DNA of 12,983 bases, taken from Octopus sinensis. Lineage: Eukaryota. Position numbers and translations under genes: made by a program. Of the stretch, positions 95-11,538 are shown in pieces (within the stretch, counting starts at the first letter, position 1; each line of letters begins with the position of its first letter). Location of the stretch: assembly GCF_006345805.1 (NCBI RefSeq), contig NW_021826436.1, positions 1 through 12,983 on the forward strand. The letters run 5' to 3'. The notes under the pieces were generated by a model, which searched no databases, was not told the DNA's origin, and was given only the letters and a program-made list of their open reading frames with translations.

Positions 95-200
95 TTTAAA
101 ACTGATGAAAGTTGCTTTGGTGGAATTTTATTTATTTAATGCAATCAGGATAAATAACCGACCACTATCAAGTAAGACCTGAAACAAGTAAGGTTCTAGA
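95..200 (+). ncRNA. Type I hammerhead-ribozyme-like motif with long rod-like stem II (degenerate stem I)
   Basis: CTGATGA at 102-108. Stem II pairs TTGCTT(112-117)/AAGTAA(170-175), TGGTGG(118-123)/CCACTA(162-167) and TTATTTATTT/GGATAAATAA. Then GAAA(181-184)-CAAG-TA(189-190). Stem I pairs only partly (TTTAAAA 95-101 vs TTCTAGA 194-200, AGG unpaired), and the base of stem II is imperfect. Confidence 0.6.
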
Positions 201-242
201 CATCGTCTTGGAAATTACCAACATTAACTGGACAGTACATAC

Positions 243-320
243 ATATATATAAACATATATTATATATATATATATATATATATATAGAGAGAGAGAGAGA
301 GAGAGAGAGAGAGAGAGAGA
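243..320. repeat. Compound (TA)n-(GA)n microsatellite
   Basis: Directly visible dinucleotide runs. Confidence 0.97.
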
Positions 321-444
321 AACCTCTATTAACAATTCAATAATGAAAGATGTCATTCACACCATATAGAAAACATACTATAAAAACCTTATTCTAAAAA
401 TCAATAAAGTACAAAAACAATAATAGTAAATACTAGAAAAAAAC

Positions 445-555
445 GACTACGACGTTTTCGTGGCTATATTTTCAAATGATATCATAATAAACATTCGATT
501 TAAAATTAAATCGATCTAAAATTATTCTATTTAAAATACAGCCACTCGTCAGGTC
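445..555 (-). ncRNA. Type I hammerhead-ribozyme-like motif with extended stem II
   Basis: Minus strand reads GAC-CTGACGA-GTGGCTGTATTTT...AAAATATAGCCAC-GAAA(A)-CGTCG-TA-GTC. This gives a 13-bp stem II with one G-U, an inner hairpin TCGATTTAA/TTAAATCGA (495-514), a 3-bp stem I and one extra A in the GAAA. Confidence 0.7.
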
Positions 556-560
556 TAAAA

Positions 561-624
561 TAATATAATAATATAATAATAATAATAATATAATAATACT
601 AATAATAATAATAATACTAATAAT
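561..624. repeat. (TAA)n microsatellite
   Basis: Directly visible. Confidence 0.95.
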
Positions 625-637
625 ACAAATATAAACT

Positions 638-1035
638 AGTTGAGCATGTCCTTAGTGGCTGACGATATGTGCATCTCTGATCACGAGCAGAAGTAGTGGG
701 GGAGCATCATAGCCATGTGTTGAGAGGGATTGTTTGGGGTTTGAATAGTTCACCTCTGGAAACATGGGGGTTCTTTCAACATCCTTAAACAACCCTTGTT
801 CAGGGACCTTTGAGCGGGATGGGCTACTCAACCTGAAGGGCCCCACCTGCAAGGTCATGTGCTGTTTATCTTGATATGAAATCACCATGTCGCGCACATA
901 TGGTTGTGATGCATGTGCCTGGTGTACCTTTATCAGACGGGTAGTCATGATGGGTATATTGGGCTTCGTATATTTTACCCCAGTGTCACTTTGATGGCAT
1001 GAACTGCTCTCTCACTCAATAATAATAATAATAAT
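638..1035 (+). mobile_element. Unclassified interspersed repeat (SINE-like or LINE 3' end) ending in an (AAT)n tail
   Basis: About 380 bp of higher-GC, complex sequence between two (TAA)n tracts, ending ...CTCTCTCACTC-(AAT)n. It resembles an abundant octopus repeat as I recall it. No clear Pol III A/B boxes seen. Confidence 0.55.
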
Positions 1036-1239
1036 AGAATAAATGTACTTATCTTAACTTATACTAATTATCAAATGAATATAGTAAAATACGTATATTA
1101 ACGATAAATAATCGGAAAACATTTGACATAAAAACATAACGTATATAGTTGAAATTTATAGACAAAAAAAAAGACGAGGACAGGTTTAAGAACAACATAC
1201 AGGTGTATTAGTTTGACACAATCGGAAAAGCGAAAAAGT

Positions 1240-1275
1240 CTTTTACGTTTCTGGCCCACGCTCTTCAGCAGAATG
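1240..1275 (-). ncRNA. Degenerate minimal hammerhead-ribozyme-like motif
   Basis: Minus strand reads CATT-CTGCTGA-A-GAGC-GTGG-GCCA-GAAA-CG-TA-AAAG, with an alternative core register CTGAAGA at 1262-1268. GAAACGTA is the minimal palindromic stem III plus cleavage site. Stem II keeps only 2 pairs. Confidence 0.5.
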
Positions 1276-1337
1276 GAATTAGGAAAATATAGAGACAGAA
1301 TTTTTAAAAAAGCTAAGAATCTAGCAGTCTATAATGT

Positions 1338-1600
1338 AATATATATATAATATATATCTATAAATATTATATATAAATATATATATAGATATATATATAG
1401 TATATATATATATATATATATATATATATATCTACATATATATCTATATATATATATATATCGATATATATATATAATATATTATATCCTATATATATAT
1501 ATATATATATATATATATCTATTAATAAATATATATATATATGTATATAATATATCTATATATACTTTTATATCTATATATATATATAATATATATATAT
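1338..1600. repeat. Long imperfect (TA)n microsatellite
   Basis: Directly visible. Confidence 0.97.
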
Positions 1601-1752
1601 CGTGGGACTCCGTCGGTTACGATGGCGAGGTGTTCCAGTTGATCTGATCAACGGAACAGCCTGCTCGTGAAATCAACGTGCAAGTGGCTGAGCATTCCAC
1701 TGACACATGTACCCTTAACGTAGTTCTCGGGGAGATTCAGCGTGCGACAGTG
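1601..1752 (+). mobile_element. Fragment of an interspersed repeat (probable SINE/retroposon internal part)
   Basis: GC-richer island (GGGACTCCGTCGGTTACG...GGGGAGATTCAGCGTG) between microsatellites. It resembles a common octopus repeat from memory only. Confidence 0.4.
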
Positions 1753-1765
1753 TCGACATTTACGT

Positions 1766-1865
1766 ATGAGTGTGTGTGTGTGTTTCTGTGTTTGTGTGTG
1801 TGTGTGTGTGTGTGTGTGTGTGTGTGTGCATGTGCGTGCGTGCGTATGTGCGTGTGTGTGTGTGT
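1766..1865. repeat. (GT)n microsatellite
   Basis: Directly visible; source of the VCVC/HTHT ORFs. Confidence 0.96.
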
Positions 1866-1878
1866 TTGCATATACGTT

Positions 1879-1934
1879 GCAGATTGACGGTTCACACCGT
1901 TTCGAGATGTATCGAGTACATGGTACCAATCTGC
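1879..1934 (-). ncRNA. Three-way-junction RNA with a hammerhead 3' half but a non-canonical 5' core
   Basis: Minus strand reads GCAGATT-GGTACC-ATGTA-CTCGA-TACAT-CTC-GAAA-CGGT-GTGA-ACCG-TC-AATCTGC. It has a perfect 7-bp closing stem, a 5-bp stem II, a 5-bp stem III capped by a GNRA loop and a GUC site. CUGANGA is absent. Confidence 0.5.
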
Positions 1935-9599: not shown

Positions 9600-9801
9600 T
9601 GCGCGTACAAATGCACTTTCCCATGGCTTTATCGATCGTATTCTCATCTGGAATCGATTTTTGTAATTTTTTCAAGACTTATACACGCCCTGATACTGTC
9701 GGTATCTACATATCAAATTTGAGCGCAATCGGATGGAAGATGCCCGAGATCCTAGAAGACACACACAGACAGACAGAACAGAACGGATTTTATATAATAG
9801 A
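9600..9801 (-). mobile_element. 5' portion of a non-autonomous Helitron-like element
   Basis: Minus strand starts A|TCTATTATATAAAA (Helitron 5' TC terminus), followed by CTGT repeats and the core CATCCGATTGCGCTCAAATTTG. No 3' hairpin-CTAG was found, so the left boundary is uncertain. Confidence 0.62.
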
Positions 9802-9948
9802 TATGATATATTACTATAAGATATATGCAAATATATTTTCGATCTTTGGTATACATATGTATATCACTTCTTTACCAAATTACATATGCAAAGAGGAAAA
9901 ATAGATAGAAACGATAGTATAATTCACATACACACATATACACACAAA

Positions 9949-10023
9949 ATATATATATATATATATATAGAGAGAGAGAGAGAGAGAGAGAGAGGGAGAG
10001 AGAGAGAGAGAGAGAGAGAGAGA
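9949..10023. repeat. Compound (TA)n-(GA)n microsatellite
   Basis: Directly visible. Confidence 0.96.
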
Positions 10024-10219
10024 TCCTGAGATCCTGAGGGACCTACGCAAAGTGGATGTAGGTGTTTTCAAATTAAAACTGGATCTCTCCTGTCGAGAGT
10101 CTCAAATGAACCTATCTAGCGGCAAGAGGTGCAAATGAGGGTAGTAGCATCAAACTCCCTCACTCACCTAATGCCACATATCAGAGGAGGCTCTCAATAA
10201 CAACAGTGTAGCAAAATAA

Positions 10220-10255
10220 TGGTGCCCCAGCATGGCCGCAGCTCTGATCTGAAAC
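10220..10255 (+). mobile_element. Isolated SINE 3'-terminal fragment
   Basis: GGTGCCCCAGCATGGCCGCAG...CTGAAAC matches the terminal motif of the family A tails. Confidence 0.6.
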
Positions 10256-10469
10256 TACATATACATATATATATATATATATATATATATATGTGTGTGT
10301 GTGTGTATACGTATGCGCATATATACAATTTTATATATATATATATATAAGAGCGTTGTAGTTGGGTTGCAGCTTTGTAGTACAGAAGCAGAATGATAAA
10401 TGAAATAACAAATAAGAAAAACTAATAATAATGCAGAAAAAGCCCAATTTTTTGCGCCTGAAACACAAG

Positions 10470-10500
10470 TTTTTTTTTTTTTTTTTTTTTTTTTTTTTTT
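10470..10500. repeat. Poly(T)31 homopolymer
   Basis: Directly visible. Confidence 0.95.
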
Positions 10501-10574
10501 GCATTGTTAGAAGACTTCGTCGTTTCTCATTTCATACAGATACAGATACATACATACATACATGTATGTATAAC

Positions 10575-10720
10575 TAAATATATATATACAACATATATAT
10601 ATATTACCTATATATATATATATATATATATATTATATATATATTCTATATATATATATATATATATATATATATATATATATAATATATATATATATAT
10701 ACATACATATACATACTATA
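10575..10720. repeat. Imperfect (TA)n microsatellite
   Basis: Directly visible. Confidence 0.95.
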
Positions 10721-10735
10721 TAAACTTAGATAAAC

Positions 10736-10777
10736 TTAGATATGTTTCGACCAAAGATTGGTCCAGGCCATGTCTAA
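10736..10777 (-). ncRNA. Minimal hammerhead-like scaffold with non-canonical 5' core
   Basis: Minus strand reads TTAGA-CATGGCCTG-GACCAA-TCT-TTGGTC-GAAA-CA-TA-TCTAA. It has a 5-bp stem I, a 6-bp stem II closed by G-C and GAAA-CA-TA. CUGANGA is replaced by CAUGGCCUG. Confidence 0.5.
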
Positions 10778-10788
10778 CTTAATAGCAC

Positions 10789-10990
10789 CACCTGATGATA
10801 TATATATATATATATATATATACATATATATATATATATATATATATATATACACATATATATATATATATACTTTACTGGGTAAAGCACGGTTACTTTC
10901 ACCTCTGGATGCTCCAGAACCTGTTGTTGAGTGTCCCACCCAAAAGGAATCGATGCTAGATGTGTCGAAATAATTGTCGTGTTTAATAAA
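10789..10990 (+). ncRNA. Hammerhead-like motif with (TA)n and a long insert in stem II, followed by AATAAA
   Basis: CAC-CTGATGA (10789-10798) ... ATGTGTC-GAAA(10967-10970)-TAATTG-TC-GTG(10979-10981), with AATAAA at 10985-10990. The stem II register is imperfect: GATATAT/ATGTGTC pairing would borrow the core GA. Confidence 0.5.
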
Positions 10991-11249
10991 TTCTCGTATA
11001 TTCCATCTTCTGTCTTTCATATATATATATATATATATATATAGCAATAACAAAATGGAGGGGATCAATAGGTGGTTCGTTAACTTTTAGACATTATATT
11101 ATATTAACTTATTTATTTATTTACTAAACTGATAATTACAATAATATACATACATATAACATATTATGCTTTACATACAAGATATAAAATATATTGATAT
11201 ATAAGATACCAGTAATTATTACAAAATAACATACATGAATAAATTGAGA

Positions 11250-11348
11250 AATATATATATATATGTATATATATATATATATATATATATATATATATAT
11301 ATATATATATATATATATATATATATATATATATATATATATATATAT
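11250..11348. repeat. (TA)n microsatellite
   Basis: Directly visible. Confidence 0.97.
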
Positions 11349-11487
11349 TACGGAGATGTACTTGCATAGCGAGTGACTTGATCTGAGATCGTGTGCTGGA
11401 ACGAAAATAATTGCAGCGTGGAAGGTGTTTATAAGCCATTAAAGAAACACACAAAAGCCGTTGATTCACTTCAACATTTAAATTTAA

Positions 11488-11538
11488 TTTGTCAAAATAT
11501 TTTCGTCGCTTTCAGACCGCGACCTGTTCACTGACAAA
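11488..11538 (-). ncRNA. Minimal type I hammerhead variant with G3-C8 core swap
   Basis: Minus strand reads TTTGTCA-GTGAACA-G-GTCGC-GGTCTGAAA-GCGAC-GAAA-ATAT-TT-TGACAAA. It has a perfect 7-bp stem I, a 5-bp stem II, a palindromic ATAT stem III, and the core GUGAACA in place of CUGAAGA. Confidence 0.72.

What the first reader, a model, noticed from the sequence alone, without database searches (positions are those of the whole stretch)
95..11538. Seven hammerhead-like ribozyme folds in short islands between microsatellites: a possible diverse set of non-autonomous ribozyme retroelements
Seen: type-I hammerhead topology (stem I - core - stem II - GAAA - stem III - UH - stem I) at 95-200(+), 445-555(-), 1240-1275(-), 1879-1934(-), 10736-10777(-), 10789-10981(+) and 11488-11538(-). 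They occupy six non-coding islands of ~200-300 bp bounded by (TA)n, (TAA)n, (GA)n or (GT)n tracts. The islands are not obviously homologous to one another. Six of the seven have a 2-6 nt self-complementary or nearly self-complementary stem III. Established: Penelope-like elements and retrozymes carry such minimal hammerheads, which can cleave as dimers. Inference: these are solo pseudo-LTRs or mini-elements of several microsatellite-targeting PLE-dependent families, with unusually wide variation in the catalytic core.
Basis: partly seen in the sequence, partly recalled or inferred. Interest (0 to 1): 0.85.

Follow-up and report, generated by a model that had tools for sequence, protein, structure and literature searches.

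The report
Penelope tails with odd hammerhead cores
Most of these islands are leftover tail ends of Penelope-like jumping genes carrying a known kind of predicted self-cutting RNA fold, but two families with thousands of copies have fixed core changes (G3-C8 and U6) that I could not find reported in nature and whose activity is untested.

Summary
Every island is a dispersed repeat. Two are on the wrong strand: their families carry a hammerhead on the other strand, decayed here. One (10789-10981) is a chimera: its CTGATGA comes from the antisense of a neighbouring element plus a TA repeat. One (10736-10777) is the 3' hairpin of a LINE with no hammerhead core. Six families still have minimal type I hammerheads with palindromic stem III. 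Four are the 3' ends (pseudo-LTRs) of endonuclease-bearing Penelope-like elements, so they are mostly solo or truncated tails, not non-autonomous elements. One has about 345-nt tandem units like a retrozyme. This is a known class. The new part is family-fixed core variation: G3-C8 (6,213 exact copies), U6 with a free position 7 (9,531 copies), plus U3-A8 and C4, which are already known. A relaxed descriptor on the window alone gives no more hits than shuffles. Cleavage is untested, and RNA reads show no ends at the cut sites.

The parts
70..238 (-). F1: old low-copy repeat; family hammerhead (CUGAUGA core, stem III A-CAGCUG-U, C17) on the minus strand at about 102-176, decayed here (core TTGATAG at 171-165, GAAA read as AAAG)
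   Evidence: (copy L097 passes the strict descriptor); majority of 8 copies did not pass; inverted partners lie 5' in this orientation in 2 near cases
321..558 (-). F2: solo pseudo-LTR of a Penelope-like element; hammerhead 445-556 with canonical core, about 93-nt stem II arm, family stem III A-CGCGCG-U, A17; window copy has intact core but altered stem III
   Evidence: GIY-YIG-like ORF end upstream on the same strand in 7 of 28 distinct other loci; RT-like ORF further up in L192
1144..1300 (-). F3: solo pseudo-LTR; hammerhead 1240-1275, core CUG-Y-N-GA plus one extra A, stem I CUUU/AAAG, stem II GAGC/GCUC, stem III A-CG-U, A17; window copy has C6 and broken stems I and II
   Evidence: near full-length RT + GIY-YIG element upstream in L262
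1866..2121 (+). F4: old repeat with head-to-tail units of about 345 nt; family hammerhead (U3-A8 core UUGAUAA, stem III A-UAUCGAUA-U, C17) at about 1920-1963, dead in this copy (core and cut triplet lost)
10722..10797 (-). F5: extreme 3' end of a young LINE: hairpin followed by a short tandem tail; not a hammerhead
   Evidence: RT ORF directly upstream in 10 of 29 other loci; RVT_1 E 1e-31
10889..10902 (-). short inverted piece resembling the 3' tail of F6, at the 5' junction of the F6 copy
   Evidence: seen by eye against the tails of L135 and L137; coordinates
10903..11018 (+). F6: 5'-truncated pseudo-LTR holding only the 3' half of the hammerhead (GAAA, stem III, cut site at about 10977); family core is CCGACGA (C4), stem III A-CAAUUG-U, C17
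   Evidence: GIY-YIG-like or RT-like ORF upstream on the same strand in 10 of 29 other loci
11348..11553 (-). F7: young solo pseudo-LTR; intact hammerhead 11488-11538 with G3-C8 core GUGAACA plus one extra G, 7-bp stem I, 5-bp stem II, stem III A-AUAU-U, U17
   Evidence: GIY-YIG ORF end (above Pfam cut-off) about 1.1 kb upstream in L266

Best explanation
The islands are solo or 5'-truncated 3' ends (pseudo-LTRs) of several Penelope-like retrotransposon families, plus one LINE tail, and each Penelope-type end carries a minimal type I hammerhead fold that likely cleaves slowly, only as a dimer and probably with help from the element's protein. Shown: repeat families, conserved folds, linkage of F2, F3, F6 and F7 to RT and/or GIY-YIG ORFs, inverted 5' partners, TA tracts after the 3' end. 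Inferred: the GIY-YIG nicks AT-rich DNA and primes reverse transcription inside a pseudo-LTR. Priming in the upstream pseudo-LTR of a tandem transcript would give the very common 200-nt solo copies. Two pseudo-LTRs in one transcript would pair through the palindromic stem III to form the active dimer. G3-C8 (F7) would keep partial activity; U6 (F3) would be weak. The window copies of F1, F3, F4 and F6 are too decayed or truncated to cleave. Confidence: 0.88 for identity, about 0.5 that the variant-core families cleave in vivo.
For: First-look candidates 2806, 2198, 1066, 2237, 112, 63 and 10. Majorities of F2, F3, F4, F6, F7 pass a strict descriptor; shuffles pass 0-1 of 300. 66 strict hits in 726 kb of fetched loci against 0-3 in three shuffles (loci were chosen for these families). 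Stems differ wholly in sequence between families yet pair; F3 and a sister family swap the outer stem I pair, C-G for G-C. ORF links. Inverted partial copies in 11 of 30 F7, 5 of 30 F6 and 5 of 30 F2 loci. (TA)n within 22 nt of the 3' end in 15 of 30 F7, 18 of 30 F3, 20 of 26 F6 and 18 of 24 F2 copies. Same architecture as published (PMC4209133, PMC8557442, PMC11167929).
Against: No cleavage data. In two RNA runs of a related organism (about 6% of each read) reads cover F3 and F7 about equally in both directions, with no pile-up of ends at the cut sites and no circular joints listed; 150-nt cDNA libraries are weak for this. Pfam missed the F2 and F6 ORFs, and F3's hits were below cut-off (E 0.002-0.017); BLASTP of the F2 RT against a Pfam-positive element gave E 0.3. 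No ORF link was found for F1 or F4. No C3-G8 sister of F7 in the first 100 of 228 non-G3 copies, so G3-C8 rests on one fixed double change. F5 is also TA-flanked (15 of 29), so TA flanks are not specific to Penelope elements.
Confidence: 0.8

Rival explanations
1. The fold is kept in these elements for a non-catalytic job (protein binding, control of splicing or translation of the downstream ORF), so core positions such as A6 are free to drift and the U6 family does not cleave.
For: U6 in 98 of the first 100 of 9,531 F3 matches and 11 of 12 incidental copies; A6C cleaves at under 0.1 per min (PMC3088659 section 8); hammerhead mutants did not affect insertion in vitro and no RNA-seq ends were found at the cut site for an anole element (PMC11167929); no ends here either.
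Against: The other core positions stay fixed while position 7 varies across all four bases, which is the catalytic signature; 3-8 pairing is kept by three different pairs across families.
Confidence: 0.3
2. The short copies are independent non-autonomous retrozyme-like elements that replicate through hammerhead-made circles.
For: F4 has head-to-tail units of about 345 nt. F7 copies have a sharp 5' boundary.
Against: F2, F3, F6 and F7 continue upstream into protein-coding elements; F7 head-to-tail pattern found once in the genome and then through a TA tract; no circular joints in RNA reads.
Confidence: 0.12
3. The folds are chance patterns in AT-rich repeat-rich DNA.
For: True for candidates 1, 4, 5 and 6 as drawn; relaxed descriptors match shuffles; no Rfam hit.
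Against: Family-level conservation and shuffle controls.
Confidence: 0.03

Closest known systems
Minimal hammerheads in pseudo-LTRs of metazoan Penelope-like elements (Cervera and de la Pena 2014, PMC4209133)
   Same: [quoted passage not shown]
   Different: Their alignment (supplement part read) has only CUGANGA and UUGANAA cores and no octopus; here G3-C8, U6 and C4 cores are family-fixed, and F2 and F6 have stem II arms of 77-93 nt.
Anole Poseidon element PAc (Frangieh et al. 2024, PMC11167929)
   Same: Pseudo-LTR hammerhead, AT-rich targets, two alternative 3' ends ('tail'; seen in F7), no RNA-seq ends at the cut site.
   Different: There C3G/G8C is an engineered partial rescue; here F7 carries it naturally in over 6,000 copies.
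Non-LTR retrozymes of animals (PMC7229834; preprint 10.64898/2026.07.22.740005)
   Same: F4: non-coding tandem unit in the 150-450 nt range with a type I hammerhead.
   Different: F4 has a U3-A8 minimal-type core, is old and mostly monomeric here; circles not shown; other families are ORF-linked.
Natural hammerhead core variants (Perreault et al. 2011, PMC3088659)
   Same: U3-A8, A6C and U4C are described.
   Different: A6U and G3-C8 were not in the section and passages I read; those variants are rare single cases, these are high-copy.
LINE 3' stem-loop plus tandem tail (recalled from L2/CR1-type elements)
   Same: F5 is a hairpin and short tandem tail right after an RT ORF.
   Different: Clade of the F5 LINE was not tested.

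Membership tests
EN+ Penelope-like element pseudo-LTR | C-terminal GIY-YIG endonuclease upstream on the same strand | tested here: met
   F7 Pfam 24.4 bits over cut-off 22.6; F3 E 0.0024, below cut-off; F6 atlas cluster with GIY-YIG on 37% of members; F2 by tblastn to the F6 ORF, E 1e-12. Not found for F1, F4.
EN+ Penelope-like element pseudo-LTR | RT in the same ORF, of the Penelope-like clade | tested here: inconclusive
   RT-like ORFs upstream for F3, F2, F6 (43% to F2); no RT seen for F7; no tree built. Clade names (Neptune, Nematis, Poseidon) would rest on recalled motifs only.
EN+ Penelope-like element pseudo-LTR | 5' truncation with inverted or partial tandem partners | tested here: met
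   head-to-head pairs L266-L269
EN+ Penelope-like element pseudo-LTR | AT-microsatellite insertion bias | tested here: inconclusive
   50-77% of copies followed by (TA)n, but the LINE tail F5 shows 15 of 29 and no background rate was computed
Minimal type I hammerhead | Stems I and II, 3-8 pair, G5, A9, GAAA, UH triplet, palindromic stem III | tested here: met
   F2, F3, F4(+), F6, F7 majorities; F1 in a single copy only; F5 fails
Minimal type I hammerhead | Invariant U4 and A6 | tested here: not met
   F3 has U6 or C6; F6 has C4 in 23 of 27; met for F1, F2, F4, F7
Minimal type I hammerhead | Self-cleavage as a dimer | not testable with these tools
   no assay; one search shows no ends at the sites
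Non-LTR retrozyme | Head-to-tail non-coding units each with a hammerhead | tested here: inconclusive
   F4 direct partners in 4 of 30 loci; not met for F7, 0-1 of 30 for F2, F3, F6
Non-LTR retrozyme | Unit-length circular RNA | tested here: inconclusive

The most novel reading that the evidence does not exclude
Two Penelope-like lineages have spread over 15,000 copies of hammerheads that break the textbook core: a natural G3-C8 swap and an A6-to-U change kept through several subfamilies. Either they are active protein-assisted ribozymes that standard CUGANGA descriptors miss, or they show that the fold serves these elements without cleaving. In both families the short copies start at a 3'-splice-site-like motif just upstream of the fold, which would tie splicing, the hammerhead and solo-copy formation together.
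Probability: 0.35. Interest if true: 0.65.

Novelty: new variant of a known kind. Interest (0 to 1): 0.42.

Why it matters
The role of hammerheads in Penelope-like elements is an open question: they cleave poorly and were dispensable in the one in vitro system. This genome offers natural pairs to test it, such as F3 (U6) against its A6 sister family with the same stems, and F7 (G3-C8). It also shows that descriptor-based ribozyme counts miss thousands of copies, and that many short 'unknown' or SINE-like repeats in such genomes may be Penelope tails. The window itself is ordinary repeat debris.

Tried and rejected
Rfam scan: no hammerhead. Relaxed descriptors: no better than shuffles. CUGAAGA register for F3: rejected because stem I and stem II do not close; the sister family fixes the register. 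C3-G8 sister of F7: not seen in the 100 listed of 228. Tandem F7: one hit through a TA tract; the five-copy array on C2 is a host segmental repeat. The RT element beside F3 in L191 is a different family with its own end. An upstream exon that would explain the 'GAG' before short F7 copies (8 of 24) was not identified by eye, so splicing is not shown. No RNA holder was listed among indexed runs. Lunse et al. 2017 could not be read; its variant set may include these families. Earlier scan findings: none on this genome, none bearing on it.
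Full report
Setting. The window is G000:C2907, from a 2.72-Gb animal genome. It is repeat debris between microsatellites.

Checking the folds one by one. Rfam gave no hammerhead. A strict descriptor finds only 11488-11538 (0 in 30 shuffles); a relaxed one finds 10 sites against 8.7 in shuffles. 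So the window alone cannot carry the claim. All islands are repeats, and alignments of the best 10-30 loci decide each case. Candidates 2, 3 and 7 are conserved. Candidate 1's core is private drift: 0 of 8 distinct homologs have it, while the family has a canonical hammerhead on the minus strand (one copy passes the strict test; the majority of 8 did not, G12 being kept in 4 of 8). Candidate 4's pairing is kept in 0 of 6 placeable homologs, while the plus strand has a U3-A8 hammerhead with a 10-nt palindrome (majority of 17 of the 29 other loci, chosen for covering the region). Candidate 6 joins the antisense start of F5, a TA tract and the 3' half of F6; the F6 family has its own core, CCGACGA, cut off in this copy. 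Candidate 5 is the tail of a young LINE: an RT ORF runs up to it in 10 of 29 other loci (RVT_1 E 1e-31) and it has no valid core.

What the families belong to. F2: GIY-YIG-like ORF end upstream on the same strand in 7 of 28 distinct loci and an RT-like ORF before it. F6: 10 of 29 loci. F3: L262 holds a broken but near full-length RT and GIY-YIG ORF, a 3' UTR of about 750 nt, the U6 hammerhead and a TA tract (Pfam hits below cut-off). F7: L266 holds a GIY-YIG end above cut-off, about 1.1 kb of UTR rich in simple repeats, then the hammerhead. Inverted 5' partners occur in 11 of 30 F7 loci. F4 has tandem units of about 345 nt and no ORF link; F1 has no link. These traits match the published description of Penelope-like insertions (PMC8557442, passages).

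Core variants. F7: 6,213 exact matches with G3, C8 in 96 of the 100 listed (hand count); the 228 non-G3 copies look like single later changes. F7 has U17 in 30 of 30; a passage in PMC3884650 says G3-C8 works less well with C17 (data not shown there), but U17 is common in these motifs, so this is weak. F3: 9,531 matches; in the 100 listed, position 6 is T in 98, C in 2, A in 0, and position 7 is about A 29, C 29, G 6, T 36 (hand count; the pattern fixed the other positions). In 12 copies met by chance in flanks, U6 is in 11 and position 7 is the only freely varying core site; a sister family keeps A6 in 16 of 16 and swaps the outer stem I pair. Position 7 is also four-way variable in reads and contigs. 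The window's subfamily has C6 in 20 and U6 in 9 of 29.

5' boundary. Of 31 F7 arms picked by the core pattern, 20 begin within 5 nt of an AG preceded by a branch-point-like and pyrimidine-rich stretch, 10 begin at stem I, and 1 extends 352 nt; 501 exact copies carry the extension. Eight of 18 short F3 copies begin at a similar place. In Drosophila Penelope an intron end maps to the start of helix I (PMC4209133). Splicing is not shown here.

How it likely works. Inferred from PMC11167929, PMC4209133 and PMC6765202: tandem transcript, nicking of AT-rich DNA, internal priming in a pseudo-LTR, dimer pairing through stem III, slow protein-assisted cleavage. Against: no read ends at cut sites or circles in two RNA runs of a related organism.

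How common. In 17 arbitrary 10-kb stretches F7 appeared in 2, and F2, F3, F5 in 1 each; 3 strict hammerheads were found there. Flanks hold several further families. Such islands are routine in this genome.

Literature seen. PMC4209133: parts 1-2 of 4, supplement part 2 of 3 and a term search; figures read as text are unreliable. PMC11167929: parts 1-2 of 4. PMC3088659: section 8 and passages, supplements not read. PMC6765202: passages and part of section 11. PMC8557442, PMC7229834, PMC13282606 (no mention of hammerhead), PMC3884650: passages. Preprint 2026.07.22.740005: part 1 of 5. Lunse 2017: not held. Searches found no report of natural G3-C8 or A6U hammerheads or of octopus Penelope hammerheads; the library is partial, so this is not proof.

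Verdict. A known system with new members and two apparently unreported high-copy core variants. Interest 0.42.

Noticed in passing
window 3906-4560 (+): Decayed mariner-type transposase remnant (HTH_48, E 3e-5).
   Followed up: partly
L034, L060, L066, L106, L171, L178 and others: Sister family of F3 with A6 kept, C4 in 6 of 16 copies and stem I GUUU/AAAC; often lies near F3 copies.
   Followed up: partly
L191:6100-8826 (-): Another Penelope-like element (GIY-YIG above cut-off) ending in what reads by eye as a U3-A8 hammerhead with stem III A-CAUG-U.
   Followed up: partly
L011, L021, L081, L092, L113, L142, L197: At least six further minimal hammerhead types in flanks, including another U3-A8 form.
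   Followed up: no
L266:330-1130 and 1969-2760: The F7 element's own 3' UTR is made largely of (ACAT)n-like repeats, so it spreads microsatellites as well as landing in them.
   Followed up: partly
window 10722-10797 family: The LINE leaves many 68-79-nt copies that start at nearly the same place, often inside TA tracts.
   Followed up: no
L265 (G000:C2:2026900-2032700): Host tandem array of 2.5-3.2 kb units with short hydrophobic ORFs, each unit carrying one F7 copy.
   Followed up: partly
window 626-1017 and 1601-1770: Further non-microsatellite islands that look like common dispersed repeats; no strict hammerhead.
   Followed up: no
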